A stretch of DNA of 18,697 nt from Candidatus Vampirococcus lugosii (GTDB lineage Bacteria; Patescibacteriota; Gracilibacteria; Absconditabacterales; Absconditicoccaceae). Below, one piece after another: positions 1 through 17,892 of the stretch (within the stretch, counting starts at the first letter, position 1; each line of letters begins with the position of its first letter). Under the pieces are notes generated by a model. It made no database searches and was not told the origin of the DNA. It saw only the letters and a program-made list of their open reading frames with translations. A program made the position numbers and the translations under genes. The stretch covers positions 1 to 18,697 of the forward strand of contig NZ_JAEDAM010000012.1 in the NCBI RefSeq assembly GCF_018420025.1. The letters run 5' to 3'.

Positions 1-3
1 CGC

Positions 4-28
4 AAATCCTTGTCTAAATCAAGGATTT
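4..28 (-). terminator. Candidate operon-end hairpin just 3' of the cas6-like stop: perfect 9-bp inverted repeat AAATCCTTG-N7-CAAGGATTT
   Basis: The inverted repeat is read directly from the sequence and lies 13 nt beyond the stop at 41-43 on the minus strand. The downstream U-tract cannot be assessed because the window ends. Confidence 0.3.
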
Positions 29-40
29 AGAAATTTTGTT

Positions 41-646
41 CTACAAAGATGAGGTATAATACCAAACATATCAAACTAATCAAGATTTAAGATATTTTTT
101 TAATTTTAATTGTTTAGTCATAATTGAAAATTCTCATATATATATATATATATTATTTTTTAAAAAATTTTTAAATTTATTTTCATCATATCATATATTA
201 TATATTTTATTTAATTTTTGATATGTAGAAAAAATAAATTTATCAGGATTTGGTAAAGTATACAAAATATTTCTATTTCTAATAAATGTAGGACTTATAT
301 AATTTATTTTAAATTTTTTAAAATTAACAAAATTAATTTTTTCAATATCAAAAATGTCAAAATCAAAATTTATTTTTTCCAACTCAAATTTTTGTCAATT
401 GATACTAATATTTAAATTTCATTTTGATAATATTTTCTTAAGTATTTCAGAATAAGCATCTTGTCAATTAATTGTAAGTCTAATTTGTAAATGATTATAT
501 TTTATATAAGATATTTTCAAAATTGATTTATAAATTTTTTCATCGTCATCAAAAACATTAAGAATAGCACCCAAAAGATGATAATAATATTCTGTATTTC
601 ATATCTTTTGTAAAGCTTTAAAATTTAATTTTAATAAATATAACAT
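41..646 (-). CDS. cas6: Cas6-like RAMP, putative crRNA-processing endoribonuclease (201 aa, atypically short)
   Basis: Translated with TGA=Gly: MLYLLKLNFKALQKIGNTEYYYHLLGAILNVF...KINYISPTFIRNRNILYTLPNPDKFIFSTYQKLNKIY...KSGLVGYVWYYTSSL*. The layout resembles Cas6, and the gene is last in the csm operon, 14 nt after csm3. It is in frame with track ORF 191..382. No terminal GxGxxxxxGxG loop was found. Confidence 0.5.
136..153. repeat. (AT)9 dinucleotide microsatellite inside the cas6-like CDS
   Basis: 18 nt of perfect AT repeats, encoding IYIYI on the minus strand. Confidence 0.9.
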
Positions 647-660
647 ATTATTTAATTTTA

Positions 661-1281
661 TTAATTAGAAACTATTTCTATTCTTCAATTACCTCTACTT
701 CATCATCATCAAATATAAGTTTTTTGTAAATAATCAATTCATTTTACCAAAATATCTTCAAGCTCTTGTTGACTTATTCAATACTCTCATTCATGAGGTA
801 ATAAAATTATTTGTCATTCAAATTCTACTCAAGCAGGAACTCTTTCTATATGTCTTGGATTAGCAGTTCATTTCAAAAACCTTGGCACAGTATTTTCCGA
901 TTTATCTTCAAAAAAATCAGATTTCATACTTTCAAATTTTTCTTTCCATTCTTCACTAAGATAAAAATCTTCAAATATAATTCTAGAAGATATTTTATTA
1001 TCTTTGTTTGCCATTCAAAAAGCTTTTGAAACTTCAGTATTAATATCTTGTACAGGATTTCATTTTTCATCAATTTTATTAGAATAATCAATCATTTCTA
1101 TTAAACTTCTCATTTTTCATTTAATACTACTACCTGGAATATATGGACATCATGTTAAAGGATTTTTTATTACAGATGAATCTATTCATCAAATTTTAAG
1201 ACCTTGTTCTGATCATCATATATGTAAACCAGTTTTCAAAATTATTTTATATTTTTTAACAATAGGATTTAACATTTTCAT
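661..1281 (-). CDS. csm3: Csm3, the Cas7-family backbone/RNase subunit of the type III-A complex (206 aa)
   Basis: MKMLNPIVKKYKIILKTGLHIGGSEQGLKIGGIDSSVIKNPLTGCPYIPGSSIKGKMRSLIE...ENTVPRFLKGTANPRHIERVPAGVEFEG...YIGGGGSRGNGRIEIVSN*. These are canonical Csm3 motifs, including the Asp of GGID. The frame was verified codon by codon and the length is 621 nt. Confidence 0.9.
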
Positions 1282-1331
1282 ATTTTTTTATAATTTATTT
1301 ATTAAATATTTATTAAAATATTATTTAATTA

Positions 1332-3911
1332 TTATTTAACTATTAAATAATAATTTCAAGTATCTTCCAATAATTCTTTTAATTCTAATGAATCATAATC
1401 TATATCTTTTATCATATTATATATTTCATCAATACTATTTGCACTAATATTTCATTGTCTTGAATTATTTTCAAGTTCTGCTATGATAACAAATCATCAA
1501 TTTTCTACTCAACGAAGATTAAGTGAAATATAATAATAATTTTTTCAATCCAAAGGATCATTAGGTAAACTAGTTAAATATCTAGGAATAAGATAATCTT
1601 GTATTTCATTAATTTTAATCATTCAATCACTTTCTGGATAACTTCATATACTAGAATGATAGATTGCCAAAGCTGTTCAAACTTGTCATAAATGTGATAA
1701 TCTTGCACTATCTCTTTTAGGAGATAAATATTCATAAAAAATATCTTCTGATTCCAAATAATTATCTGGAAAATCTATATTTATATTATCTAAATCTTCA
1801 TAATCATAATTATATGACATATCAAAATTCATAGATTTTAATCATATATTTTCTCAATATAGAAATGCTATCATTCAATTCATTTCTTCTGATATATTTT
1901 CTATATCTATATTTATACTTAATTCATTAATATTTATTATTCATGAATAATCTATTTTCACTCAATTATAATTTGCAATTCATTCAAAATTTACTCATTC
2001 ATTTTCTTTAATATTTATATCAAAATCTATATAAAATAATTCTTCTTTTATTTTTCAAGAAATATTTATTTTGGATTTTTCTGAATGTAATTCTGATAAA
2101 TCTAATGATGTTTCAACATATGTTCTATAATCACCTAAATTTTGATTAAGATAATCTTGATCAATATAATTTTGATAATCTAATAATGCTCTTGAATTTG
2201 TATCTGTATAATTATCTTTATAATTAAATTCAATTTTATTATTTTCATAATAAAAACTATTTTGTAAATCTGTTGATTTTATATATTCAATTCAATTTTT
2301 TGATACTATAATTTCTGTATTTTCATCATCATAATTATATCTTTCATATAAAGAATATTTTCAATTTCCTATATCTTCAACTATTAAATAATAATTTTTA
2401 AAATCTCTTTGAAAATCATCTTTTTTAAAATCATCTTCATCTTCATTAATTAAATATAAAAAATCAATAAAATTTTGATTATATAAAAGTTTATATTTAT
2501 TATCTCATAATTTTTCATAAACTGTAAAAAGTTCTTTATTATTAAGATATTCATATATTTTTTCTTCTTTTTCATTTACTTCATCTATAATTTTTACAAA
2601 TTCTGACAACTCATATCCTATATTATTATATGCTACATTATTATAGAATTCTTCATTTTCAAATTTTATATATTTTCATAAATTTTCATTTATTTTTTCT
2701 TTTATAAGATTATACATTTCTTTTTCTTCACTATACAAAAATTGTTTTAATCAAGAATTCTTAAATTCATTAATTTTAAGATAAAAGTCATTTTTATTTT
2801 GTTTTATATCAATATCATTATTTAATGATACATTTTCTTCTAATAAATCAGTTTCAAGATTAGTATTAAGTTTTATATTTCAATCAATTAAATCTTTTGT
2901 TAAATCATAATTTAAAATATAATCTAAAATAGAATTTAACTTTATATAATTATCTCATTTTGCATCCAAATTTAAAGATAAATTTCATTTTTCTTTACCT
3001 ATACCAATAATTCTATCAGAATTTAATAAATTTTCATTATTACTTCTTATAATATTACTTATTTGTTTTGCATCTTTTGCAATACTTTGTTGAAATCATA
3101 AAATAACATCATCAAATTCTTTTAATCTATTATTATATTTTTCTTCATAAAAATCATTTTTTTGATTTTCTTCTTTTTGAATTTCTTCATTAAAATCATT
3201 AATAATATTATTAACTGTATCTTCACAAGTTTCTTTAATACAATAATCAATTTTTTCTTTTATTTTTTCATCTGTAATTCATACAAATGTTTCATCTCCA
3301 ATAATAGTAAAAGGAACTCATTCTATAACAACTCAAAGTTGTTCTGAAATTTTATTTATTAATTTTCAATTTTCAGAATTATACCAAATTTCAAATTTAT
3401 TTATATTAATTTTATCTTGATATTTTTCACTATTTTCTATATTTTCCCATATTTCATTTTGTTTACTACATGCTGGACATCCATCTCACCAAAAATAGTA
3501 AACTTGTATTGGTCATTTTTCTAATATATTTTTTTCAATTTCATCTTCAATTTCTATTTCTCATTTATTTTCAATTTTTATCTCTCATCATAAATAATTT
3601 ATTCTTTCAACAAATCATTCAATAGCAAAACTTATCATCATATAATCTAATTCCCGAAAATTTCTTTTTTGTTTCACTATTTCTAATTTAGAATAGAATT
3701 CATATAATAAATCTAAATTATTTGTATTTGATAAAACATTTGTTAATTGTTTTTTAAAGTCATCAAAAATATCTTTTTCTTCTTGATTAAGTTCTTTATA
3801 CAAATTATTTGTTATCTCTTTATTTTCTTGTATTATTTCTTGTATATTATTTGCAAAACTTCAATTTGTTAATGTTATAAGCATTATTATTAATATAATT
3901 ATTTTTTTCAT
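1332..3911 (-). CDS. Large secreted protein (859 aa) with an N-terminal signal peptide, a thioredoxin-fold CxxC domain and a C-terminal pilin/pseudopilin-like globular domain
   Basis: N-terminus is MKKIIILIIMLITLTNGSFA/NN. Thioredoxin-like segment is VYYFWGDGCPACSKQ...GVPFTIIGDETFVG, with CPAC at 3468-3479. The C-terminal segment RDSARLSHLGQVGTALAIYHSSIGSYPES...YLTSLPNDPLDGKNYYYISL resembles the core of type IV pilin/T2SS pseudopilin domains. It is in frame with track ORF 3615..3803 and is 2580 nt long. Confidence 0.75.
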
Positions 3912-3943
3912 TTCTTTTTCTTAGTTTATTAATTAAAAATGTA

Positions 3944-4417
3944 CTAATTTGCTTTTGGATTAAAATATTTATGATAAGCAACAAATACTTCCAAAAAATC
4001 TTTAAATTTTTGTTTATCATTTAATTCTTTATAAATTCATTTCAAAAACCTTAAAAATCATTCAGGAAGTAATTTTCTTGTTTCTTGATAACCAACTTTA
4101 GCAAACCATATTTGTATTTTAATATTTTTTTGATTTTCATCTCAAGCTCAATAAATTATATCATAATATGTATCATAAATTTTTCTAATTGATGAAGCAG
4201 ATTTTAGTTTTTCAAAAGAACTTGATACACTTTCAAATCTTTCCAAACTTAAAGAATTTATTAAATCATTTGAATCAAAATTATCTAAATAATTTTTCAT
4301 AAATATTGATTTATTATAATTGTATGATTTATTATAATTATTATTATATGTTTTATTATTTGAATTTTTATTATAAGAATTATTTCATTTGTCAGAATAT
4401 CATGGTATATATATCAT
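3944..4417 (-). CDS. csm2: Csm2, the Cas11 small subunit (157 aa; an alternative start at 4300 gives 118 aa)
   Basis: ...SASSIRKIYDTYYDIIYGAGDENQKNIKIQIWFAKVGYQETRKLLPEGFLRFLKGIYKELNDKQKFKDFLEVFVAYHKYFNPKAN*. This helical pattern and the C-terminal F..vaYhKy are typical of Csm2. The N-terminal 39 aa are low-complexity and N/Y/K-rich. Confidence 0.75.
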
Positions 4418-4445
4418 TTTTTAATTATTAGTTTAATATTTAAAA

Positions 4446-6941
4446 TTATATTTCTCTATTTTCATATATTTGATTTGTCATATTCATAAGTAGTTTATCA
4501 ATTTCTTTGATATTGTATTTAAATCAATTATCAAAACTATTTTTATCAATTTGTCATATAACTTTTTTTATGTTTTCTATCATTAATTTAGCATTATAAT
4601 TTTCTTTTACATTTTTATTTATAGAATAAATAATTTTTGCTCATAAATGAACTATTTTATATAATTCTTCTGGATTTTTAGAATTTTGACTTTCAAAAAA
4701 ATTTCTAATTTCCCAAAGATGATTATATATTCTATATTGTCCTGTGCTTTCCAATCATTCCCAATTGTTTTTGATAATATTAGTTAATTTAATTTCATTA
4801 ATATCACTTATTTTCATATTATCTTGATATATACAAACTCATCTATAAGATAATTTTTCTTCTTCAATAATATTTTTATTATTTAAATTAGATTTATAAT
4901 CTTGTTTTGCAGATTTTAATAAATTTTCTGTATCTTCATAAACTCTTTTGAATGGAGTTTTATTTTTGAATATACTAATTCATAAGCTAAAATGTAATTT
5001 ATCATTATTTGCAATAAATTTTTTGAAGCAATCTTGATAAATATCTGCAAAATTTAATCTATCTTTGAAAGGAAGAACAAAAATAAAATCGTCTCAACCA
5101 CTAAATACTGTATAGACATCAGGAAAAGTATTTTGTAATAATTCTTGAGTAAATTTTCCAAAAAACAATTCCATAAATCTACTAAATTGAACTAATCTAC
5201 TTACACTATAAATATCTTTAAATCAATGAGATAAAATAATACTCATATTATCAATATCTCCACAAATCATAGTAAGATAAGATCTATTTTTACTAGCAAG
5301 TTTATCAAAAGTTTTTACTTCATCTCATTGTATAGGTACATATAAATTTATTGATTTTCATATTAATAATTTATTTTTTTCTGATTTATCTATATTCCAA
5401 TCATTAAATAAAACTTTTAAACTTCATTTTCATTCAAAATCTAAATCAAAAACAAATTTATCATTTTCAATAAAATTTAAATATATACAATTATTTTTTA
5501 CTAATTTTTCACCAATTTCAATTTCTTTTTGACAATGTAAACAAATACTATTATCATAATCATTTTCATCATCGCTATTCGTGTAATTTATTCAACAATG
5601 TTTACACAAAACTTTTCAAGACACTTTTTGATAAGAAAAAATTTTTTGTAAATTTGAAACTGAATAAATACTTGTTTTATTTTGTGATAAATCATCAAAA
5701 AGTTCTTTGAAAGTATTATTAATATTATTTTTTATTTTAAAAATATTTTTTAATAAAACTTCTTTTTCTATAAGATTTATTTTTAAATCTGTATTATAAT
5801 TAAGAATAAAATAATTATTTATTTCATTTGCTATATCTTTAATACTAATCTTTTGATCTGCCAAAATTATAAATTTACCACCTGCATTTATAAGGACATT
5901 AGCAGGAGATAAATCTAATTTATTAATAATATAATGAATTACTGCTTCTGTAAGCATTTGTACTTTAAAAGATCTAGCTCTAAGTCTTTTTGAAAGTTTT
6001 GATTGATTTTTGATTCAATCAAAAATATATTTTTGTATACTAGGAAAATCTCAAGCTATAAGTTTTACTTTTTTTTCAAATACTTTATCTGTATCAGTAT
6101 TTTCTTTTTCATATTTGAAATCTTGGTATACAAATTTAGATTTGTAAAGAACATTTGCAATTGCAACTACAGTTTTGGTATGGTCATATAAAGAAATATC
6201 TCAAATACTTTTGTATGCATCACTTGGAACCATAGTAAAATAATTTTGTAATAATAATTCAAGTTTATATATAAATTCTTTAAATTCTTTATCAGAACTA
6301 TCATTATTTAAGTTTGATTCTGAAATTAAATTTTTTAAATCTTTTTGACAATTTTCATTAAGTTTTTTGAATCAATCACTTATATCTGTATTTCATATAT
6401 TTTTCATCAAATTTTGTAAATAAGCATCTTCAAAACTTCTTCCTTTATCCGTTGGAAAAAAAGATTTTATATTTAATTCTCATAAAGATTTTGGTAAATA
6501 AGTATATTTAGCTTTATTAGTTTTTGTATCTTTAAAAATATTTTCAAAAATACTTGTAAGTCATATATGTTTTATATTTTCATATTGTTTATCTGTAGCT
6601 GTTTCATCTATTCTATCTATTCTTTCATTTGAACTAATATTATCAGCCATATAAACTATCCAAGCTAAATTTTTTGTATTATCATTTTCAAAATTGTAGT
6701 TTTTCCAATCTCTTGCATGATGTAAAGATGCAATTAATCATATTTGTTTCCATAAATCATTAAAATCATTATCAAGCATAAACTCAAAAACTTGTTGAGC
6801 ATGAGCTATTTGATAAGGATTGAATCAATTTTTTGTTTTTGAATTTAAATTTCTATTCTGTCATCATCTTCGCATAAGTTTCCCTAAATCATGAAGATAA
6901 CTAGCTATTATTATTTTGTACAAATCTATATTTTTATTCAT
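4446..6941 (-). CDS. cas10: Cas10/Csm1 large subunit (831 aa) with HD nuclease and GGDD cyclase motifs intact
   Basis: MNKNIDLYKIIIASYLHDLGKL... (HD at 6888-6893), SLYDHTKTVVAIA, KLIAGDFPSIQKYIF, LRARSF, INAGGKF. Zinc finger is CKHCG...CLHCQ. Palm2 has LTMICGDIDNMS and VYTVFSGGDDFIFVLPF (GGDD at 5088-5099). It is in frame with track ORF 5616..5957 and is 2496 nt long. Confidence 0.92.
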
Positions 6942-6957
6942 TTATTTAAATATTAAT

Positions 6958-8139
6958 TTATTTAATTAAATCATTTATTATTTTTAATGTATTATCTTCT
7001 TTTTCAATTAATTTATCTAAATTTTTTAGATGTACTATAGGAACACCTAAAGTATCAAATAAGGCTTTTCCAATTCTATTTTTTAAATTATATGGTGATG
7101 TATATGATTCAATAAAATCATAAGCTTCATTAAACTCTCAATCAATATATTTTGATATCATATATCAGTATACATTTTTAGTTTCTTCTACATCAAAATG
7201 TGATATATCATCAATATCAATATCAATATAATTAATTGATACAATTTCTTCTTCAGAAATAACTTTTTCAATAGCATCATCAACAGTATTTTTGAACATA
7301 TTAAATTCCATTCTAAATGAATTTAAAAGACTCTCTTTATTAATTCTATTCTCTTTAACTATTGATTTTAATTCAATTAAATATTCTTCAGGTATATCAT
7401 ATGTATTAAGTAAAATCTCTATTGTATATATATTATTTTTAATATTCATAACACTAATTAAAATATTTATATATAAATTTGGAGAATCAAAAATAGTTTT
7501 TGAAAGATTATAAGCAATATCAATATATTTTAAGCAAGTTCAGTAATCTCAAATATGACAAGAATATATTGCAACTCCAAGTATATTTTTATTTAATTTT
7601 TTTACATTATCTTTAAGATAGATAATATCTGTATTAATATTTACTGATTTATCTAATTGAAAATGTTCGTAATCATTTAAAATATCATTAACTTCATAAA
7701 CAATTTTTTTAAATTCATCATCATTATAATAATAATCAAATATATTTTCATATTTTTTAATTCAATCTTTAATTATATTAGGTATTTCTTCATTTTCAAA
7801 AAGATTTTCATAATATTCATAATCAGGATTATAATCACCAAAATCATATCAAAAATATGAATTTTCATAAAAACTAAATATTTTTCAAGGTGTAAATCAA
7901 TCTTCACTATTATTATCTAAACTAAAAAGATCTCATTCTCATAATTCTAAAAAATACTCATTAATTACATAAAGTCAATTTTCTTCTTTAGGTAAATTTT
8001 CTACATAATTGACTAACTCAAGTTTAGAAGTATCATAATCAGGTATATTATGTGATCTATGAAGATAAATAAATCATACTATAAATAATAGTACTATAGA
8101 AACTATAAATACAAACAATATTTTTTTAAAAATTTTCAT
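6958..8139 (-). CDS. Membrane-anchored protein of unknown function (393 aa), located between csm4 and cas10
   Basis: MKIFKKILFVFIVSIVLLFIVGFIYLHRSHN... has a single N-terminal TM helix or signal anchor. The rest is acidic and Y/N-rich, with a possible TPR-like helix pair (LGVAIYSCHIGDYGTCLKYIDIAYNL). No RAMP, CARF or nuclease motif was recognised. It is in frame with track ORF 7165..7449, is 1182 nt long, starts 5 nt after the csm4 stop and ends 16 nt before the cas10 start. Confidence 0.7.
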
Positions 8140-8144
8140 TTTAT

Positions 8145-9059
8145 TTAAAATAAGTATCAAAAGTTAAAGCTATTTTCTATTTTATAATAAGTTCATTTAA
8201 GTTTTTCATTTGTGTAAATCAAAGATCATGGATATACAAAATTCATATTTCATTTAAATATATTTTTTTGTGTTGTTTTGGTATTTTTATTTTGTATATC
8301 TAAATTTGATTTATTAAGATCAAAAGTTTTTATTTCTTCTTGTGTTGGCAAATAATTATTTAATATATAATATATTCATTCTTTTTTCATATTTTCTATA
8401 TAATCAAATAATTCTTTTTCTTTATCGTTCAAATCCTCCAATAAGATAGTTTTTATTTTTCAATATCATATTGATTTATATTTCCCAAAACCAACAGTAT
8501 TAAATATAATTTGCATACTATTATAAAATTTTTGTCGCATATTTTCATCATATATTTTTATATACAAAACTATATTTTCATCAAAATAATTTATATTTTC
8601 CAATACATAAGGTGTAGTTTCTCATAAATTAAATCTTGTTGTAAAGTTTTTGAAATGTGAATTTATTTTATATGATGGAATATTTGATTTAAATTTATCT
8701 ACTAATTTTTTAAATTTTTCAAAATCATCTCACTGAAAAAAATAATCAAAAATATTTTTATCTATAGGAAAATATTTTATATTTTTATTTATTTTTCTAT
8801 TTGGTTCATTTTCCAAAATATTATCTAAACTTATATTGCTTCAAATTTTTAATTTAGGATTAAAATAAAAAGGTTTTGGTAAATATCATTCAAAAAATCA
8901 ATTACTAATCAAAAAAGGAGCATTTCAATTATTAAATTCTTGAAAAATATCTTTTAGATTATCAAAATCTAAAGCAAAAATATATCATAATATAGTATCT
9001 GATTCTAATTCAGTAGCAAAACCAGATTTAAAATTTAGTTTAATTTTTTTAATTTGCAT
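8145..9059 (-). CDS. csm4: Csm4, the Cas5-family RAMP that partners Cas10 (304 aa)
   Basis: MQIKKIKLNFKSGFATELESDTILGYIFAL...APFLISNGFFEGYLPKPF...NTVGFGKYKSIGYGKIK...YYILNNYLPTQEEI. These match the Csm4/Cmr3 hallmarks (sDTl, iSsaFP..lPKP, G-rich loop GxGxxxSxGyG). The frame was verified codon by codon to the TAA at 8145-8147. Confidence 0.8.
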
Positions 9060-9076
9060 ATTTAATTTATAATAAA

Positions 9077-10090
9077 TTATTTAAATTCTAATAAAAGCCA
9101 TCATACAGGATTTCAATTTTCATCAAGATATATACTTTTGTCTCAAACTCAAAATGTCCTAGAACTTTTATGATCCATTATTTTTAATCATTTTCTATGA
9201 TTAAATTTGTAAATATGGTCTTCCAAAATTTCTTCCCAAAATATTTTGTAAGACAAACTTTTTTTGAACATTCAAATTTTAATAGGATATTTTCATTGAT
9301 CATATAAATCATTTAACTTATCTATAAAATCAATTCTTATTCAAATATTATCTAAAATTTGTTCTTCTCTTGTTATCAAAATATTTGAATAATCTTTTAT
9401 TTTCTGAATAAAATCATCTCATAAAGAAATATTTTTTTCATTTGGATATATATCAATTTCTATATCAAACTCTCAAGAATTTATAGATTCCAATATTTGC
9501 CATATTCAATGTTCTTTACCTGTATTTGCTTTTTTATTTACTCATAATATTTTTTGAATATATTTTTCATAATTTTTTATTTTAACATCATTGAATCATA
9601 TAAAATTAAATAATTCATTATCTAATTGTTTATTTAGTGAATTAATATATTCTTTATTTTCTATATTTGAATAATCATTATAAAGTTTGTCATATAAAAA
9701 AACAGTCCTAAATATTCCTTTAAGAGTACTTCAAGGTATTATAGGAGTATTAGTAAATTTATCATAAATAAATTTTTTTATTTGTCATTGATTATTTTTT
9801 TCTTTTGCATTTTGTAAAACTTTGATAGCTTCTTTTTTAATTTCAATTCTTTCAATAATTTCAAAATTTGAAATATCGATTTTATCTTTTATTATTTCTA
9901 ATCTTTTAAAATCTCAAAATTGAATACAATTTAATACATCATTAAACTTTTCTTTATTATCAATTTTTTCCAACCAATTATTATTTACAACTAATAATTC
10001 ATTTCATCTTATAAAAAAATCAAATCTTTCATATAATTCTCAATTATTTATATTTATACTACTAAGTATAGAACAAGAAATTTTTTTCAT
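9077..10090 (-). CDS. csm5: Csm5-like Cas7-family RAMP (337 aa)
   Basis: MKKISCSILSSININNGELYERFDFFIRGNELLVVNNNWLEKI...TNTPIIPGSTLKGIFRTVFLY...SSRTFGVGDKSIYLDENGNPVGWLLLEFK*. It has the RAMP motif P.IPGS.lKG..R and a Csm5-type C-terminus (G..pvGW..l). Length is 1014 nt. Confidence 0.7.
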
Positions 10091-10121
10091 TTTTTAAAAT
10101 AAAAATTTTAAATATTAATAC

Positions 10122-10149
10122 ATTCTAATTTTTTTTTAAAAAAAGTCAA
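10122..10149 (-). promoter_or_regulatory. Candidate sigma70-type promoter of the csm operon: TTGACT-16 nt (T6 A9 T)-TAGAAT
   Basis: The minus strand reads TTGACTTTTTTTAAAAAAAAATTAGAAT, and the -10 box lies about 30 nt upstream of the csm5 ATG at 10090. A near-identical motif occurs at 15668. Confidence 0.45.
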
Positions 10150-10167
10150 AACAATTTTTATATTTAT

Positions 10168-10195
10168 TTGAATTTAATATTAATTTATCTATAAT
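10168..10195 (+). promoter_or_regulatory. Candidate promoter for csm6-cas1-cas2: TTGAAT-16 nt-TATAAT
   Basis: Hexamers read directly, 35 nt upstream of the ATG at 10231. Chance matches are common in AT-rich DNA. Confidence 0.35.
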
Positions 10196-10230
10196 ACTAT
10201 ATATTTATAATTAAATAATTTTTTAAAACA

Positions 10231-11565
10231 ATGAAAAAAGAAAAAGTATTATTAATATGGTCTTTTGGTACTTCTGATATTTACTTGGATGGTAAATTAA
10301 TAAGAGATAATTTTTTGTCAAAAACAAAAGATATTGCTAAAAATTTTGATACTTATTACAATGAAAAAAGAATTAATATGAGTATTTTAGAAAATTTTGT
10401 AAATGAATTTTATAATAATAAAGAAATAATTATTAAGTGAATTTTTACTGACCAAAATTGATTTGAGCAAGATACAATTTATTTACAAACAATTTTGATG
10501 AAATATATTCAAAAATGATCTATTTCATCAAAAATTAAATCTGCTAGAGAACATATAATTTTGGATGAAGCAAGAAGATTTGATATTATCAAAAATAAAT
10601 TAGATTCTTATTTAAAAAATATACCTACAAATATATTTGAAGAAATAATGATAAATAATACTTCTGGAACTAAATGACTTAGTTCTGCTTTACTTTTTTC
10701 ATCTTTATTGAATTTTGAATTATGAAAATTATCTTTTTATTATGGTGAACAAATAGATAAAGATACTTTATTTATGAAACAATCAAATATTATATATTTT
10801 GTACATAAACAAAATATTGATAATTTTTTGGAAAATAAAGATTTTGAATCTTGTATTTCTTATTTACAAAATAATAATTTAATCTCTTCTTTTAAAAAAG
10901 AATTTGATTATTCCAAATATATGTTTGCAAGAATTAATGCTGATTATGATAAATGTAAAGAAATTTATAAAAAATGAAATTTAGATTCCAAATTTGCAAT
11001 TACTAAAAATACTGTAAATAAAATACAAGAAATGATAAATTGAATAATTTTTACTTTTGATAAAAAAAGATTTATAGAATTTTTGGGTAGAATATATAAT
11101 TTTACTGATGTAGGACTTAGATTTTTTATAAATAAATTTTTTGAAACTGATTTTGAAAGTATTAAATACAAAGATTTACAAGATTTTGTACAAAAATATC
11201 CTGATTTGGAAAAATTTTTGAATAATTATAAAGTAAGATTTAATAATAAAGCTTCTTTTCTTAATTGGAATATAAAAAATTCAGATCATATGATAAAAGA
11301 AATATGATTTATAAATACTAAAGTAATGTTGTCATTACTTGATTTTATATCTACTAAAAATTGAGAATATAAAAAATATAAAGATTTTTTTGTGAGATTA
11401 GAAAAATTAAATGAATATAGAAACAATACTTTGATAGCTCATTGAATGAATCAAGTAAATGAAAAAATTATTTTTGAAAAATATTGATATGATACTATCA
11501 AAACTGATTTTATTGATTTATTGGAAAATATAGTTTGAAAAAATAAATTATGGATTGAGTTTTAA
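10231..11565 (+). CDS. csm6: CARF-HEPN ancillary ribonuclease, Csm6/Csx1 family (444 aa)
   Basis: The N-terminus KVLLIWSFGTSD and NNTSGTKGLSSALLF resemble the CARF beta1 strand and the tGGtK.m loop. The C-terminus EYRNNTLIAHG is a HEPN R-x6-H motif (R at 11419-11421, H at 11440-11442). It joins track ORFs 10231, 10774 and 11083, which share one frame, across TGA codons. Confidence 0.65.
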
Positions 11566-11587
11566 TTAAATTATAATACACATAAAA

Positions 11588-12595
11588 ATGTTTATATATC
11601 TTACCAAAAATTGACTTAATGTAAGCAAAAAATGATGAAAATTAATAATTTATGATATAAATGATGAAAATACACAAGAAACTCCTATTAGTTTGATAGA
11701 ATGAGTAGTAATATTTGGTAGAGTGCAACTTACAACAGATGTTATTAGAGAATTTTTGAAATGAAAAGTTCCAGTATTTTTCTTATCCAAACATTGATCA
11801 TATTTTGGAAAATTGGATAGTTTGGAACAAACTAATGTAGAATTATTATATAATCATATCAAAGCAAGTATGGATAGTGATATTTCGTTGAAATATTCAA
11901 AATCTATAATTTCATCAAAAATAAATAATAGTATTGTTATGTTGCAAAGATGGACAAGATTTAAAGAAATTTATTGATGTGAAAATAAAATACAAAAATT
12001 AAGAGATTTACAAAAAAATATTGCTGAATGTAATAATTTAGATTCTTTGAGATGATATGAATGAACTTGTGCAAGAATTTATTTTGAATGATTTGCAAAA
12101 TTTGTAAAAGAACCGTTCAAATTTGAATCAAGAAATCGCAGACCTCCGAAAGATCCAGTAAATGCAATGTTAAGTTTGTGATATACATTATTGGCACAAA
12201 CTATACAAATGATATTGGATATACAATGAGTTAATACTCAAATTTGATTTTTTCATCAACCAAAAGATTTAAGAACTTTATTAGTTTTGGATATGATGGA
12301 AATGTATAGAGCTTGGATAGTAGATGATATGATTTTGAAAATTATAGAAAATTGAAAAATTAAATTGGAAAATTTTCAAATAATTGAAGAAAATCCAAAA
12401 AGACCTGTTTTGTTAGATGATGATTGATTAAAAATTTTTCTTACAGAGTATTACAAAACTATATTTAAGTGAAAAGATGAAATGAGTATTCATAATACTA
12501 TGAAAAAACTTAAAACAATAGAAATAAATATAGAAGAATTTAAACAAACTTTAGTAAAAAAAACTTTTGATTATGAGGGTTTTAAGATTAAGTAA
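11588..12595 (+). CDS. cas1: Cas1 integrase (335 aa)
   Basis: MFIYLTKNGLNVSKKGGKLIIYD...LIEGVVIFGRVQLTTDVIREFLKGKVPVFFLSKHGSYFGKL...LRGYEGTCARIYFEGFAK...SRNRRPPKDPVNAMLSLGYTLL...GFFHQPKDLRTLLVLDMMEMYR. These are canonical Cas1 motifs, several with TGA-encoded Gly. Confidence 0.93.
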
Positions 12596-12602
12596 TGAAA
12601 AA

Positions 12603-12923
12603 ATGTATTTAAGTATAAGTTATGATATTAGCAATACTAAAGCAAGAAATAGAATAGTAAAATTGCTTGAAAGTTATGGTTTCAGAGTACAAAAATCAGT
12701 TTTTGAAGTGCAATTAAATGAAAGACAATTTAAAATTTTGAAAAAACAATTGCAAAAAATTTTGGATCGAGCCAAAAAACAATATCCAGAAGAACATAAT
12801 AATGTAGATTCTATAAAATTTTATGTATTGTCAAAAATTTGAGAATGAAGTTTGGATGGTAGAATAGATGGATTATGAAGTGGTTATGAAAAAATTTATT
12901 TTGAAGAATTTATGATAATATAA
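12603..12923 (+). CDS. cas2: Cas2 (106 aa; an alternative upstream start at 12567 overlaps cas1)
   Basis: MYLSISYDISNTKARNRIVKLLESYGFRVQKSVFEVQLNERQFKILKKQL...FYVLSKIGEGSLDGRIDGLGSGYEKIYFEEFMII*. This is the canonical Cas2 N-terminus, and the track ORF is extended through three TGA codons. Confidence 0.9.
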
Positions 12924-12943: not shown

Positions 12944-13270
12944 TTAATCAATCCAAAAAGTATTTGAACAATAATCACATTTGATGTATGATTCTTTTTT
13001 ACATTTTTTTTGAATTTTAGCTCAACAATTAGGACAAATAATATTATTTAATTTAGTATTATTTTGTTTTGATGATTTGGTAAAACATTTCAATACAATG
13101 TAAGGTGCTCAAAAAAGGGAACTAATAATTAATCGACCAAAAACAACTTCAATTTCAAATCCTTCTTGTCCTGAGATAAAGGCTATAAAAAATAATAAAG
13201 AAATAAATAAACAAATATAAAAAGGTATTTGTAAAATAATTAATATTGTATTTTTTATTTTTATTCACAT
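12944..13270 (-). CDS. Small membrane protein with a C-terminal zinc ribbon, paralog A (108 aa)
   Basis: MGIKIKNTILIILQIPFYICLFISLLFFIAFISGQEGFEIEVVFGRLIISSLFGAPYIVLKCF...ICPNCGAKIQKKCKKESYIKCDYCSNTFWID*. It has hydrophobic N-terminal helices and a CxxC...CxxC motif, and is 327 nt long. Confidence 0.55.
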
Positions 13271-13393
13271 ATTATATTTAATTTTAATAATTAAAAGTAT
13301 AAAAAATATTATTTATAATAAAAATTTATAATTCAATTATTGAAAAATACAAGAAATACAAGAAATAATTTAAATAAAATATATTTAAATCTA

Positions 13394-13789
13394 TTAATCA
13401 ATCCAAAAAGTGCCTAAACAATAATCACATTTGAGATATGATTTATTTTTACATTTTTTGTGAATTTTAGCTCAACAATTAGGACAAATAATATTATTTA
13501 ATTTAATATTATTACTTAAATCAGTTTTATTACTTAAATCAGTTTTATTACTTAAATCAGTTTTATTACTTAAATCAGTTTTATTACTTAAATCAGTATT
13601 ATTACTTAAATCAGAATTATCATTTTTTAATGATTTTTTAGAATATTTCGATATAATGTAAGGTGTTCAAAACATGGAACATCGAATAATAATTGCCGAA
13701 ACAAATTCAAATATTCAATCTTCTTCTGACATATAGCCTATAAGAAATAATAAAAAAAAATGTATTAGTAATATAACTATAATTATCAT
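13394..13789 (-). CDS. Small membrane protein with a C-terminal zinc ribbon, paralog B (131 aa), with an internal hexapeptide repeat insertion
   Basis: MIIIVILLIHFFLLFLIGYMSEEDGIFEFVSAIIIRCSMFGTPYIISKY...NSDLSNNTDLSNKTDLSNKTDLSNKTDLSNKTDLSNNIKLNNIICPNCGAKIHKKCKNKSYLKCDYCLGTFWID*. Length is 396 nt. Confidence 0.55.
13511..13618. repeat. 18-bp tandem repeat x6 (attacttaaatcagtttt; the last two copies each carry 1-2 substitutions)
   Basis: Copies were counted directly at 13511, 13529, 13547, 13565, 13583 and 13601. The repeat is in frame within paralog B and absent from paralog A. Confidence 0.95.
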
Positions 13790-13911
13790 TGTATTTTTTG
13801 TTTTTATTAATTAAAAGTATAATAAAAATTATTATTTAAAATAAAAATTTATAATTCAATTATTGAAAAATACAAGAAATAATTTACTAAAATAAAAAAA
13901 TAATAAAAAAC

Positions 13912-14129: not shown

Positions 14130-15648
14130 GTAGACTAAAAGCTCGAAATTACGAGCATCGAAACAACAATTTTGATTTATAAACCATTATTTTTTTTTAA
14201 GTAGACTAAAAGCTCGAAATTACGAGCATCGAAACTCTCACTCCCAGATTGAAACCCAGGAGAAACTACTCGTAGACTAAAAGCTCGAAATTACGAGCAT
14301 CGAAACATAATCTCCTCTCCGGAGATTATAAACCCTTTTATTTCTATCAGTAGACTAAAAGCTCGAAATTACGAGCATCGAAACGGAGATTATAAAACTA
14401 TTAATTCATATTATATTTTTTTTCAGTAGACTAAAAGCTCGAAATTACGAGCATCGAAACAGTATTCTTCAAGTTTAAATGAGCTTTTTCAGTTTTCTGT
14501 AGACTAAAAGCTCGAAATTACGAGCATCGAAACCCTCTTCTAATCAATCTGTTTCATTTATGATAATCATATGTTTATTGTAGACTAAAAGCTCGAAATT
14601 ACGAGCATCGAAACTCAAACCCAAAATTATAAACAATTTCAAGTTCTTCTGTAGACTAAAAGCTCGAAATTACGAGCATCGAAACAATTTGAGGTTCATC
14701 AAATCCAAAATTGTTAATAATTTCAAGTAGACTAAAAGCTCGAAATTACGAGCATCGAAACTCAAGAATATCAGTGTTTAATTCAACTGAGCCAGTCCAT
14801 AGTAGACTAAAAGCTCGAAATTACGAGCATCGAAACCCAAGACATCAAGCAATTGAGTGCCTTCAAGCACCCAAGTAGACTAAAAGCTCGAAATTACGAG
14901 CATCGAAACTATCTGCTGCGACTTCAAAATAAAACACTAATTCTCTGTAGACTAAAAGCTCGAAATTACGAGCATCGAAACTTCACAAGTCTCTAGCCGC
15001 TTCCAGCATGTCGGAAGCGACTTCGTAGACTAAAAGCTCGAAATTACGAGCATCGAAACTGACCTTTGATTTATAAATCATTTATTGTTTTTAATATAGT
15101 AGACTAAAAGCTCGAAATTACGAGCATCGAAACTCTCATACCCGATTTTCTTCAGGTATAAGAAAAAATAGTAGACTAAAAGCTCGAAATTACGAGCATC
15201 GAAACCCTCTTCGGAGATTATAAAACTTTTTATTTCTATCGTAGACTAAAAGCTCGAAATTACGAGCATCGAAACTCTGAAGAGGAGGTTATAAATCATT
15301 TTATAATTATCTCTTTGTAGACTAAAAGCTCGAAATTACGAGCATCGAAACAAATAACAACTCTTCAACCTCTTCTACACCATCATTCTGTAGACTAAAA
15401 GCTCGAAATTACGAGCATCGAAACCAAAAGCTTTCTTTATTAATTTCAAAGCTTTTTTTGTTCTTTGTAGACTAAAAGCTCGAAATTACGAGCATCGAAA
15501 CTGGGGACACTTACTTTTATAAATCATTATTATATTTTTGTAGACTAAAAGCTCGAAATTACGAGCATCGAAACCGGTCTCGTCCAAAGACGAAGCCAAT
15601 AGCTTAATGACTTGTAGACTAAAAGCTCGAAATTACGAGCATCGAAAA
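14130..15648 (+). CRISPR. CRISPR array with 21 copies of the 35-nt repeat GTAGACTAAAAGCTCGAAATTACGAGCATCGAAAC and 20 spacers of 35-46 nt
   Basis: Repeat starts are 14130, 14201, 14272, 14350, 14426, 14499, 14580, 14651, 14727, 14802, 14875, 14947, 15025, 15099, 15171, 15241, 15317, 15390, 15467, 15540 and 15614. The repeat has an internal hairpin GCTCG-AAATTA-CGAGC and a 3' end ATCGAAAC, which is a type I/III-style 8-nt tag. The last repeat ends GAAAA, which sets the polarity. Confidence 0.97.
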
Positions 15649-16083: not shown

Positions 16084-17340
16084 TTATACTGTAATATTAA
16101 AAGGATTTACTCACCAAAACCTTGCTAAATCCAAAAAGATTATATAAACTCATAAAGACATAAGTAAGACAAAAAATACTATATTAAAATAATTTTCTAT
16201 AACAAAATATTTTTCTGGATGAAATTTTCAAATTGATTGAATAATAACTCATACTGCTCTACCTCAATCTAATGCTGGGAAAGGTAAAATATTAAATATA
16301 GCTAATGCTAAACTTATAATACCTCCAAAAGCAATATATTGCCAAATAGAATTAGATAAAATCATTTCTCAAACTTTTACTGCTCATACAGGTCATGAAA
16401 GATTTTCTACAGCTTCTTTTGCTTGTTTTCAATCAAAAGTTAATAATTTTTGTCAAATATTTCATAATACATGAAAAGTAATTCTTGTTTGTGAAAATAT
16501 TTCACTGACTCAAGCTATAGATCATTCAATAAATCACATTTGTACGACTTGTAATTTATCAATAAATTCTTCTCATCTTATACTAGGAATAGGATATATT
16601 CAAAATTGACATAATTCATTATTTATATTAATATCTGAATAATCTATTATATTACCATCTCTAAGTATTTGCATTGATATATTTTTATTACATAATCATT
16701 CTTTTTTAAAATAATTAATATGTGAGTCTTTTTTAAAATAATGAGGAGAAAATTTTAATAAATTAATATCTTCTCAGTTTATTGATAAAATAATATCATT
16801 ATCTTGTATTCATACTTCTTCTGCAATTGTTCAAGTTGCCAAAAAAACTTCCAATTGAATACTCTCAATTCATCATTCAAAAAGATTATTTTCTTTTACA
16901 AATGTATAATCTGGCATTAAATAACTATTTGTATTTATTCATATTTCTCAATCTGGAATTATTCATATAGGTTGTATTCATTTCCAAAAAGCAACTGAAA
17001 AAAATAACCAAGCAAAAAATAGGTTAACTAAAACTCATCAAAATAAAATTAATAATTTTTTTCATAATGATTGAGTTATAAAACTATCTTTTGCATAAAA
17101 ACTTCATTCATCATCTGGATCTTCTCATTTCAACCTTACAAATCATCAAAGAGGTAATCGATTTATTGTATATTCTGTTCATGATTTATCAGTATATATT
17201 TTGAATGCTTTTGGAGGTATTCATAGTCAAAATTCCAAAACTTTTACTCAAGATTTTTTGGCAGCAATAAAATGTCATAATTCATGAACTATTACTAAAA
17301 ACATAAACAATAAAAATCATGCTATAATAGCTATCCACAT
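16084..17340 (-). CDS. rseP: RseP-type site-2 protease, M50 zinc metalloprotease (418 aa)
   Basis: MWIAIIAGFLLFMFLVIVHELGHFIAAKKSGVKVLEFGLGIPP...RLPLGGFVRLKGED...FNILPFPALDGGRAV. It has the HExxH and LDGG motifs with TGA-encoded Gly, and is 1257 nt long. Confidence 0.9.
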
Positions 17341-17892
17341 ATTTAATTTAAATTAAAATTATAAAAAACAATACAAAAAAATTTGTACTTAAATATATAT
17401 AAATATTTTTATATCATAATCAATATATATTTATTTTAAATAAAAATAATGTATAATAAATTTTATGAATTTAATTAATAGGTTGTAAGTTACTTAATTA
17501 CTACAATTCTCTTAATTTAACTTTTTAAGTCTTACTTTTTGTAATAAAAAAAGCAAACTTAATGAAATAATATATTATAAATATTAAATACAAGTATATA
17601 GTGTTATAATTGATCCAAAGATGTTAAAAAAAATCTTATTGAAAGATCATAAAAATCTGATAATTAAGAATTTCATATTCCTATATGACAATTTATCAAA
17701 AACAAAACTGATTTTTTTTGAAATTAATAAATTCAAATACAATATATATGTAAAGAAATTGATTAAATAAGACATTTTGAAAAATTACAAAAATCTTGAT
17801 TATATAATAAAACTATATTCTTCACTAAAGAGAAAAACACTTTTTTAAATTAAAATAATAAATTAAAATAATAAATTAAAATACAATTATTT

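What the first reader, a model, noticed from the sequence alone, without database searches (positions are those of the whole stretch)
1332..3911. An 859-aa secreted thioredoxin-fold plus pilin-like protein between csm2 and csm3
It has a signal peptide (MKKIIILIIMLITLTNGSFA). It has a thioredoxin-like domain with a CPAC active site (3468-3479) and the downstream GVPF motif, then a long Asn/Asp/Glu-rich repeat-like middle. The C-terminal domain resembles the globular core of type IV pilins and pseudopilins (RDSARLSHLGQVGTALAIYHSSIGSYPES...LPNDPLDGKNYYY) but lacks the usual N-terminal pilin helix. This combination suggests a cell-surface redox or adhesion protein, yet the gene separates csm2 from the catalytic csm3. 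Surface-protein genes are prominent in episymbiotic CPR bacteria, so a physical operon link to CRISPR interference is intriguing.
Basis: partly seen in the sequence, partly recalled or inferred. Interest (0 to 1): 0.65.

Follow-up and report, generated by a model that had tools for sequence, protein, structure and literature searches.

The report
Exported modular protein inside csm operon
A gene for an exported, acidic surface-type protein sits between two CRISPR type III-A genes in this glycine-recoding (UGA=Gly) CPR bacterium. It is most likely a long-resident passenger, because relatives occur outside CRISPR loci and the closest related CRISPR operon lacks it.

Summary
With UGA read as Gly (code 25), 3911-1332 (- strand) is an intact 859-codon gene between csm2 and csm3. 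It has one N-terminal hydrophobic signal segment, a thioredoxin-like insert (CPAC, cis-Pro VP, second Cys pair) and a C-terminal domain weakly but consistently resembling GspG pseudopilins. It lacks a prepilin site and hydrophobic helix. The middle is N/D/E-rich but not repetitive.

The conserved part of the family is the signal peptide, an N-terminal helical domain and a ~475-aa orphan core. An exhaustive HMMER scan of 1.84 billion representatives found four members with E-values of 1e-30 or better.
- Two members (window and a Gracilibacteria MAG) lie between csm2 and csm3.
- One is monocistronic with its own terminator.
- One lies beside an ABC exporter.

The thioredoxin insert and the pilin-like tail are lineage-specific add-ons that also exist as stand-alone lipoproteins.

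The closest csm operon, in Ca. Absconditicoccus praedator (Cas10 57% identical), and five other related loci have csm2 directly next to csm3.

Best reading: a cell-envelope protein gene inserted once into this operon lineage, fully adapted in composition, probably co-transcribed, and dispensable for interference. A true CRISPR-linked role remains possible (~10%).

The parts
1332..3911 (-). Whole gene 'X': 859 aa in code 25, with 38 UGA=Gly codons and a TAA stop at 1332-1334.
   Evidence: The same sequence is held in the protein database as P0001.
3852..3911 (-). Aa 1-20, MKKIIILIIMLITLTNGSFA. Sec-type signal peptide or N-terminal anchor: Lys-Lys n-region, hydrophobic core, S-F-A before Asn21.
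   Evidence: It is the only Kyte-Doolittle window above 1.6 in the protein. An equivalent segment is present in all four family members. SignalP was not available.
3576..3851 (-). Aa 21-112: conserved N-terminal domain, predicted helical. Part of the family core.
   Evidence: 42-47% identical to P0002 and P0003. Helices appear in the AF2 model, but that model has low confidence.
3162..3575 (-). Aa 113-250: thioredoxin-like insert, present only in the window protein. It holds CPAC (3468-3479), the cis-Pro loop GVPF (3309-3320) and a second Cys pair CIKETC (3225-3242). These are the only four Cys residues in the protein.
   Evidence: Pfam Thioredoxin_2 E=1.1e-4, below cutoff. About 140 of the 150 best library hits match this segment, best E=3.6e-27. 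The motifs F-x-G-x-G-C-P-x-C and V-P are invariant, and C-x4-C is present in 4 of 5 aligned sequences. The segment is absent from P0002-P0004.
1737..3161 (-). Aa 251-725: orphan family-defining core. Acidic, N/D/E/Y-rich, mixed alpha/beta, with no internal repeats.
   Evidence: 28-45% identical across P0002-P0004. No Pfam, NCBIfam, PADLOC or PDB match. BLAST self-comparison gives only the identity hit.
1335..1736 (-). Aa 726-859: GspG/pseudopilin-like globular domain. It has the amphipathic second half of the pilin helix plus a beta-sheet, but no prepilin cleavage site and no hydrophobic first half of the helix.
   Evidence: T2SSG E=0.026. Profile vs PDB: the three hits below E=0.05 are GspG/EpsG, E 0.02-0.03. 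It is 67-68% identical to the stand-alone lipoprotein P0006 and to P0010, which scores T2SSG E=4.6e-4. AF2 model of P0006: domain pLDDT about 55-78, top 11 Foldseek hits all pilins but not significant.
3944..4417 (-). csm2, the upstream neighbour. There is a 32-nt gap to the ATG of X.
   Evidence: PF03750 E=5.5e-9. Junction sequence.
661..1281 (-). csm3, the downstream neighbour. There is a 50-nt gap after the stop of X.
   Evidence: TIGR02582 E=1.2e-54, 185 bits vs cutoff 90.
4446..10090 (-). The rest of the effector operon upstream: csm5-like (9077-10090), csm4-like (8145-9059), a 393-aa N-terminally hydrophobic (predicted membrane-anchored) protein of unknown function (6958-8139) and cas10 (4446-6941).
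   Evidence: Orthologs in L001 and L008.
41..646 (-). cas6-like gene, the last gene of the operon within the window.
   Evidence: PF10040 E=7e-4, below cutoff. 57% identical to the A. praedator gene whose product hits PF10040 CRISPR_Cas6.

Best explanation
X is a lineage-specific, Sec-exported cell-envelope protein of the UGA=Gly CPR clade (Gracilibacteria/Absconditabacteria).

Architecture:
- The conserved scaffold is a signal peptide, a helical N-domain and a ~475-aa acidic core.
- This scaffold carries interchangeable extracytoplasmic modules.
- In the window protein these are a DsbA/thioredoxin-type CPAC domain with a structural second disulfide, and a GspG-like pseudopilin head domain. 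Lacking the hydrophobic helix, the head domain cannot polymerise into a fibre.
- Inferred function: the protein acts at the cell surface, in binding or adhesion and thiol-disulfide exchange.

Origin of the gene's position:
- The gene was inserted once between csm2 and csm3 in an ancestor of this csm5-csm4-cas10-csm2-csm3-cas6 operon lineage.
- It has since diverged in step with the cas genes and is probably co-transcribed with them.
- It is a passenger and is not needed for type III-A interference.

Shown: gene structure, domain content, family distribution, presence or absence across loci. Inferred: export, surface function, co-transcription, passenger status.
For: Export and non-Cas character:
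- One N-terminal hydrophobic segment, conserved in all four members.
- Net charge about -77 (166 D+E vs 89 K+R).
- All four Cys lie in the thioredoxin insert, including a conserved C-x4-C pair.
- Of the top relatives of the insert that were read, several begin with a signal- or lipoprotein-type N-terminus, and two are multi-thioredoxin fusions to a membrane domain.
- The C-terminal module also occurs as a stand-alone lipoprotein, P0006.
- No CARF, SAVED, nuclease or defence-family match.

Family distribution:
- Four clusters with E<=1e-30 among 1.84 billion representatives. No further core-type match appears among the 150 listed hits (E down to about 7e-12); core-only matches weaker than that would not have been listed.
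- P0003 is monocistronic. It has a 290-nt upstream region, a divergent neighbour and a clear stem-loop plus T-run terminator.
- P0004 sits with a secreted protein and an ABC ATPase plus permease, with no cas gene within 10 kb.

Dispensability:
- All ten Cas proteins of the window are closer to Ca. Absconditicoccus praedator than to the other X-bearing locus. Examples: Cas10 57 vs 45%, Csm6-like 74 vs 42%, Cas1 83 vs 60%.
- That operon has csm2 and csm3 26 nt apart.
- Five more related loci also have them adjacent.

Single old insertion:
- The two cas-embedded copies are each other's closest relatives: 45% identical, against 28-35% to the non-cas copies.
- That 45% equals the Cas10 divergence between the same two loci.
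- GC, GC3 and UGA-Gly usage match the neighbours, and there are no flanking repeats.

The operon tolerates foreign genes: a second, unrelated 393-aa N-terminally hydrophobic (predicted anchored) protein gene lies between csm4 and cas10 in the window only. A. praedator has a GIY-YIG gene between csm3 and cas6.
Against: - The gene has been kept intact at exactly the same junction in two lineages whose Cas10 proteins are only 45% identical. That argues for some benefit of the position, or at least of co-expression.
- Half of a four-member family lying in cas loci is far more than expected for a random envelope gene.
- Type III loci are known to be enriched in membrane-associated ancillary genes (bioRxiv 10.1101/270033).
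- Related Vampirococcus encodes ComEA inside its type III locus (PMC8080830).
- Export is inferred from sequence only.
- The fold of the core is unknown: the AF2 model has pLDDT 34.
- The sample is tiny: two independent cas-embedded loci and two non-cas loci.
Confidence: 0.7

Rival explanations
1. X is a genuine type III-A ancillary envelope protein. Co-expression with Csm couples a surface function to interference, for example shielding or altering a phage receptor, or a pilus/DNA-uptake-associated role that feeds imported nucleic acid to the CRISPR system.
For: - Same position in two operons that have diverged to 45% Cas10 identity, with X diverging in parallel.
- Tight spacing and no terminator-like site in the operon.
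- The cas-embedded copies are monophyletic.
- Precedents: membrane proteins are enriched in type III loci (10.1101/270033), and ComEA lies inside the Vampirococcus type III locus, with a proposed link to DNA uptake (PMC8080830).
- The window operon carries a second gene for a predicted membrane-anchored protein.
Against: - Absent from the closest csm operon and from five other related loci.
- Two of four family members are outside cas loci.
- No cytoplasmic sensor domain that could receive a Cas10 signal. The protein has a single N-terminal hydrophobic segment, so almost all of it is outside the cell.
- The eye-catching domains are not conserved between the two cas-embedded orthologs.
Confidence: 0.12
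2. X entered the csm2-csm3 junction twice independently, meaning the junction is an insertion hotspot. It was never present in the A. praedator lineage.
For: The Cas-protein relationships are ((window, A. praedator), L001), with X in the first and third. One gain plus one loss costs the same number of events as two gains. These operons do accept insertions at other junctions.
Against: - The two embedded copies are each other's closest relatives, and their divergence equals that of Cas10.
- There are no flanking repeats, mobile-element remnants or compositional break.
- No other gene occupies this junction in six related loci.
Confidence: 0.08
3. X is an intracellular subunit or accessory of the Csm complex, for example a divergent large subunit, and the N-terminal hydrophobic stretch is not a signal peptide.
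For: Position inside the effector gene block. No experimental localisation exists.
Against: - The operon already encodes a full set of Cas10, Csm2-5 and Cas6.
- Orthologous operons work out the same set without X.
- X is strongly acidic, and its hydrophobic N-terminus is conserved.
- Both add-on domains have relatives whose sequences begin with a signal peptide or lipoprotein-type N-terminus.
- No RAMP, Cas or PADLOC similarity.
Confidence: 0.03

Closest known systems
Extracytoplasmic thioredoxin-fold oxidoreductases (Pfam Thioredoxin_2 / DsbA-like; CPxC active site)
   Same: The insert at aa 113-250 has F-W-G-D-G-C-P-A-C, a cis-Pro V-P loop and length typical of the fold. It aligns in register with PDB thioredoxins. 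It matches a large family of thioredoxin modules at E down to 3.6e-27. Of the top relatives scanned, three exceed Pfam thioredoxin, glutaredoxin or Thioredoxin_2 cutoffs; several begin with a signal- or lipoprotein-type N-terminus, and two are fused to a membrane domain.
   Different: - It scores below Pfam's own gathering cutoff (20-23 vs 27 bits).
- It carries an extra conserved C-x4-C pair.
- It is inserted in the middle of a large orphan protein rather than standing alone.
- Redox activity and its direction are untested.
Type II secretion major pseudopilin GspG/EpsG (Pfam T2SSG; PDB 3fu1, 4lw9, 3gn9) and type IV pilins
   Same: The C-terminal 134 aa align with the amphipathic second half of the pilin helix and the following 'LPxDP...YxY' strand region of GspG. 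The predicted topology is one long helix followed by an antiparallel sheet. The top Foldseek hits are all pilins.
   Different: - No class III signal peptide or prepilin-peptidase site.
- No hydrophobic first half of the helix, so it cannot insert in the membrane or polymerise.
- It sits at the C-terminus of an 859-aa protein, or behind a lipoprotein signal in P0006.
- All similarity scores are sub-threshold.
Membrane-associated ancillary genes of type III CRISPR-Cas loci (CorA, Csx23, Cam1, membrane CARF proteins; Shmakov et al., bioRxiv 10.1101/270033; PMC11014256; PMC10808066)
   Same: A non-core gene for an envelope-located protein inside a type III locus.
   Different: The known examples have cytoplasmic sensor domains (CARF or other nucleotide-binding domains) and multi-pass or TM-effector parts, and they are consistently cas-linked. 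X has no sensor domain and is almost entirely extracytoplasmic. It is cas-linked in only 2 of 4 family clusters and is absent from the nearest related operons.
ComEA gene inside the type III CRISPR-Cas locus of Vampirococcus lugosii (PMC8080830)
   Same: Another UGA=Gly CPR bacterium with an envelope, non-cas protein gene embedded in a type III locus.
   Different: ComEA is a known DNA-binding competence protein. X has no ComEA or helix-hairpin-helix similarity. In neither case has a functional link to CRISPR been tested.

Membership tests
Thioredoxin-fold (Thioredoxin_2 / DsbA-like) | CxxC active-site motif at the N-terminus of helix 1 | tested here: met
   CPAC at aa 145-148 (3468-3479). G-C-P-x-C is invariant across five aligned homologs.
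Thioredoxin-fold (Thioredoxin_2 / DsbA-like) | Conserved cis-proline loop opposite the active site | tested here: met
   V-P of GVPF (aa 198-201) is invariant in the alignment.
Thioredoxin-fold (Thioredoxin_2 / DsbA-like) | Score above the curated family threshold | tested here: not met
   PF13098 scores 20.1-23 bits against a cutoff of 27. The link is only transitive: the insert matches P0007-P0009 at E~1e-25, and those exceed Pfam thioredoxin or glutaredoxin cutoffs.
Thioredoxin-fold (Thioredoxin_2 / DsbA-like) | Beta-alpha-beta-alpha-beta-beta-alpha fold | tested here: inconclusive
   The full-length AF2 model has pLDDT 34 and is unusable.
Type IV pilin / T2SS pseudopilin (GspG) | Class III signal peptide with prepilin-peptidase site (G|F/M-T-L-x-E) | tested here: not met
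   The sequence before KRDSARLSHLG is acidic linker. The only signal sequence is the Sec-type one at aa 1-20.
Type IV pilin / T2SS pseudopilin (GspG) | Hydrophobic N-terminal half of the long helix (the polymerisation and membrane segment) | tested here: not met
   No hydrophobic window outside aa 1-23.
Type IV pilin / T2SS pseudopilin (GspG) | Globular head: amphipathic second half of the helix packed on an antiparallel beta-sheet, with sequence similarity to T2SSG | tested here: inconclusive
   - T2SSG E=0.026 (15 bits vs cutoff 21).
- Homolog P0010 scores 20.7 bits.
- The three PDB profile hits below E=0.05 are all GspG/EpsG, E 0.02-0.03.
- Foldseek top 11 hits are all pilins, but E>=0.24 and TM<=0.37, on a model with pLDDT about 55-78 in the domain.
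CRISPR-associated ancillary gene (CRISPRicity sense) | Most family members are encoded in or next to cas loci | tested here: not met
   Two of four clusters are in cas loci. P0003 and P0004 have no cas genes on the DNA held: 10 kb upstream for P0003, whose contig ends 92 nt downstream after a terminator, and within 10 kb for P0004.
CRISPR-associated ancillary gene (CRISPRicity sense) | Present in the most closely related CRISPR-Cas systems | tested here: not met
   Absent from A. praedator (the closest for all ten Cas proteins) and from five other related loci.
CRISPR-associated ancillary gene (CRISPRicity sense) | Co-divergence with signature cas genes | tested here: inconclusive
   X is 45% identical and Cas10 44.6% identical between the window and L001. 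This is only one pair.
CRISPR-associated ancillary gene (CRISPRicity sense) | Signal-sensing or effector domain known from type III ancillaries (CARF, SAVED, nuclease, protease, TIR) | tested here: not met
   No Pfam, NCBIfam or PADLOC hit of that kind.
Sec-exported protein | N-terminal signal peptide with n-, h- and c-regions and small residues at -3/-1 | tested here: met
   MKK / IIILIIMLITLT / NGSFA|NN by inspection. Conserved in all four members. No dedicated predictor or localisation experiment was available.

The most novel reading that the evidence does not exclude
X, and perhaps the second anchored protein in the same operon, is a true envelope-side ancillary of a type III-A system in UGA=Gly CPR bacteria. 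It would be co-expressed with Csm to couple a surface process (phage-receptor shielding, or pilus/DNA-uptake-associated capture of foreign nucleic acid) to interference. That would be a CRISPR accessory acting outside the cytoplasm with no second-messenger sensor.
Probability: 0.1. Interest if true: 0.7.

Novelty: new variant of a known kind. Interest (0 to 1): 0.3.

Why it matters
As it stands, this is mainly an annotation result.
- It defines a small orphan family of exported modular proteins in UGA=Gly CPR bacteria.
- It shows domain accretion from stand-alone lipoprotein modules: a thioredoxin and a pseudopilin-like head.
- It documents that type III-A operons in these reduced genomes can carry passenger envelope genes for long periods. 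That is a caution for guilt-by-association predictions of CRISPR-linked genes.

If the minority reading were true, it would be a first case of an extracytoplasmic, sensor-less CRISPR ancillary. It would also bear on the proposal that CRISPR systems of predatory or episymbiotic CPR bacteria are tied to DNA uptake.

Tried and rejected
- Table 11 ORF calling gave only short fragments and was replaced by code 25.
- Full-length AF2 with a 2-sequence alignment gave pLDDT 33.7 and was unusable.
- Word-indexed protein searches with X and with the 4-member profile recovered only P0001 and P0002, because candidates were swamped by low-complexity words.
- Pattern scans for X relatives found little. GTDB genomes returned only the known L001 contig. 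Two JGI metagenome scans and one IMG/VR viral scan found nothing.
- The promoter scan is uninformative at this A+T content: 124 sites found vs 133 expected.
- Rfam and tRNA scans of the window found nothing.
- No PDB sequence relative of the core. No PADLOC hit.
- hhalign shows no relation between X and the 393-aa anchored protein.
- The context of P0006 is not on record, and P0005 lies on a 1.3-kb contig only.
- I considered calling the C-terminal domain of P0002 RTX-like and rejected it. The Gly/Asp motifs do not fit GGxGxD, and no Pfam hit supports it.
- L013 and L014 looked like a 91%-identical relative, but they are the same strain. The differences are W vs G at UGA codons.
Full report
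**Reading frame and genetic code.** With the standard bacterial code the window shows only 15 ORFs of 61-113 aa. Treating only TAA and TAG as stops gives long ORFs that tile 17.2 kb of the 18.7 kb. UGA falls at conserved glycines, for example in the P-loop of thymidylate kinase and the GGGGSRGNG motif of Csm3. The window therefore comes from a code-25 (UGA=Gly) CPR bacterium with about 20% G+C. UGA supplies 74-90% of all Gly codons in every gene of the operon.

**The locus.** On the minus strand, from high to low coordinates:
- csm5-like RAMP (10090-9077)
- csm4-like (9059-8145)
- a 393-aa protein of unknown function with a hydrophobic N-terminus (8139-6958)
- cas10 (6941-4446)
- csm2 (4417-3944)
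- the gene in question, X (3911-1332)
- csm3 (1281-661)
- cas6-like (646-41)

Divergently on the plus strand lie a CARF/HEPN csm6-like gene, cas1 and cas2. A CRISPR array of about 20 repeats lies at 14130-15575.

**Checking the observation.**
- X is an intact 859-codon gene with 38 in-frame UGA codons. CPAC is at exactly 3468-3479 and GVPF at 3309-3320.
- The N-terminal MKKIIILIIMLITLTNGSFA is the only hydrophobic segment.
- The protein is very acidic (166 D+E vs 89 K+R). It has only four cysteines, all in the thioredoxin segment.
- The middle region is N/D/E-rich relative to the other proteins of the window, but it has no internal repeats.
- The gaps to csm2 and csm3 are 32 and 50 nt. A scan of 1-10300 found no terminator-like site. 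The promoter scan is uninformative at this base composition.

**Domain identities: thioredoxin insert.** Against Pfam, X gives only Thioredoxin_2, below the gathering cutoff. PDB thioredoxins align in register but weakly. The exhaustive profile search of 1.84 billion representatives was decisive. About 140 of the 150 best hits match profile positions ~110-260, down to E=3.6e-27. These include a 142-aa lipoprotein (P0005) and multi-thioredoxin proteins fused to a membrane domain (P0008, P0009) that exceed Pfam thioredoxin or glutaredoxin cutoffs. The alignment shows invariant F-x-G-x-G-C-P-x-C and V-P, and a second C-x4-C pair in four of five sequences.

**Domain identities: C-terminal domain.** The C-terminal 134 aa are 67-68% identical to a stand-alone lipoprotein (P0006) and to the C-terminus of P0010. 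Four lines of evidence point towards a pseudopilin head:
- T2SSG scores E=0.026 for X and 4.6e-4 for P0010.
- A four-sequence profile finds only GspG/EpsG structures below E=0.05 in the PDB: 3fu1, 4lw9 and 3gn9, E 0.02-0.03.
- An AF2 model of P0006 (domain pLDDT about 55-78) has one long helix followed by a beta-sheet.
- Its top 11 Foldseek hits are all type IV pilins, although none is significant (E>=0.24, TM<=0.37).

There is no prepilin-peptidase site and no hydrophobic first half of the helix. This is a pilin-like head domain, not a pilin.

**What the family really is.** Only four clusters share the core:
- P0001, the window protein.
- P0002: 717 aa, from a Gracilibacteria MAG (JASMTN010000025), also seen in a Logan assembly.
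- P0003: 571 aa.
- P0004: 689 aa.

The conserved scaffold is the signal peptide, an N-domain (aa 21-112) and the core (aa 251-725). The thioredoxin domain is an insertion unique to the window protein. The C-terminus is GspG-like in P0001 and P0004. In P0002 it is a different Gly/Asp-rich domain shared with the small proteins P0063 and P0130. In P0003 it is absent. The core has no Pfam, NCBIfam, PADLOC or PDB relative. The full-length AF2 model is unusable.

**Genomic context of relatives.**
- P0002 lies between csm2 and csm3 in an operon that is collinear and orthologous with the window's.
- P0003 is preceded by a 290-nt intergenic region and a divergent gene. It is followed by a clear stem-loop plus T-run terminator, and there are no cas genes in the 10 kb upstream.
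- P0004 lies in a cluster with a small membrane protein, a secreted protein, and an ABC ATPase plus permease, with no cas genes within 10 kb.

**Is X needed by the CRISPR system?** Csm3 homologs were used to retrieve related loci.
- All ten Cas proteins of the window are closer to Ca. Absconditicoccus praedator CP054059 than to the other X-bearing locus. Examples: Cas10 57 vs 45%, Csm3 72 vs 66%, Csm6-like 74 vs 42%, Cas1 83 vs 60%.
- The A. praedator operon has the same gene order, but csm2 and csm3 are only 26 nt apart.
- Five further related loci also have csm2 abutting csm3.
- L013 and L014 are the same strain as the window, not independent evidence.

**History.**
- The two cas-embedded copies are each other's closest relatives: 45% identical, against 28-35% to P0003 and P0004.
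- Their divergence equals that of Cas10 between the same two loci.
- X matches its neighbours in GC (0.18), GC3 (0.04) and UGA-Gly use, and it has no flanking direct repeats.
- The simplest history is one old insertion into this operon lineage, vertical co-divergence, and loss in the A. praedator line.
- The operon also accepted other foreign genes: the 393-aa N-terminally hydrophobic protein gene in the window only, and a GIY-YIG gene in A. praedator.

**Interpretation.** The most likely reading (about 0.7) is a Sec-exported, modular cell-envelope protein that rides in the csm operon as a long-resident passenger. Its surface role (binding or adhesion, plus thiol-disulfide chemistry in this ortholog) is inferred from domain content, not shown. 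A genuine CRISPR-linked envelope function cannot be excluded (about 0.1). In its favour are the conserved placement, the known enrichment of membrane proteins in type III loci (bioRxiv 10.1101/270033), and the ComEA gene inside the Vampirococcus type III locus (PMC8080830). Against it, X has no cytoplasmic sensor domain, is absent from the nearest operons, and half the family lives elsewhere. Published surveys of CRISPR-Cas in these lineages report type III-A systems in Gracilibacteria (PMC10746230); my term search of that paper found no mention of hypothetical or unknown-function genes in those loci.

**Verdict.** This is a new, small orphan family with an unusual but probably incidental location, of modest interest.

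Noticed in passing
window 6958-8139 (- strand): A 393-aa protein with a hydrophobic N-terminus (predicted membrane anchor) and no Pfam, NCBIfam or PADLOC match sits between csm4 and cas10. It has no BLAST counterpart in the orthologous operons L001 and L008 and is unrelated to X by hhalign. It is a second gene for a predicted envelope protein lodged in the same csm operon.
   Followed up: partly
window 12944-13312 and 13394-13810 (- strand): Two apparently paralogous small proteins lie between cas2 and the CRISPR array. Each has hydrophobic N-terminal segments and a near-identical C-terminal zinc-ribbon-like motif (CPNCG...CDYC). An 18-nt tandem repeat (5.9 copies, 13509-13614) encodes (TDLSNK)n in the second one.
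   Followed up: no
window 14130-15575: CRISPR array of about 20 repeats (GTAGACTAAAAGCTCGAAATTACGAGCATCGAAAC). Its G+C is 33-36%, against about 18-20% elsewhere in the window.
   Followed up: partly
window 10231-12923 (+ strand) vs L001 and L008: The csm6-like/cas1/cas2 module is divergent from the csm operon here. It is collinear and downstream of cas6 in the two orthologous loci, which implies an inversion in the window lineage.
   Followed up: partly
L008 (Ca. Absconditicoccus praedator CP054059) 4212-4877, 10993-11274, 17163-17858: A 93-aa GIY-YIG gene lies between csm3 and cas6, and IS1595-family transposase genes flank the type III-A locus. This shows that the operon lineage tolerates insertions and may be mobile.
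   Followed up: no
window, all genes of the csm operon: UGA is the dominant glycine codon (74-90% of Gly codons; 38 of 45 in X), and GC3 is only 4-8%.
   Followed up: yes
L001 10001-12154 (P0002 aa 561-717); P0063, P0130: The ortholog of X in the Gracilibacteria MAG ends in a different Gly/Asp-rich domain. That domain also occurs in small ~230-aa proteins of UGA-recoded organisms. It has no Pfam match.
   Followed up: partly
L011 12478-14688: A more distant related type III-A locus carries a Card1-type CARF protein followed by a UvrD-family helicase between cas6 and cas1.
   Followed up: no
window 3944-4417 (- strand): Csm2 has a roughly 38-aa Asn/Tyr/Lys-rich low-complexity N-terminal extension before the Pfam-matched region.
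   Followed up: no
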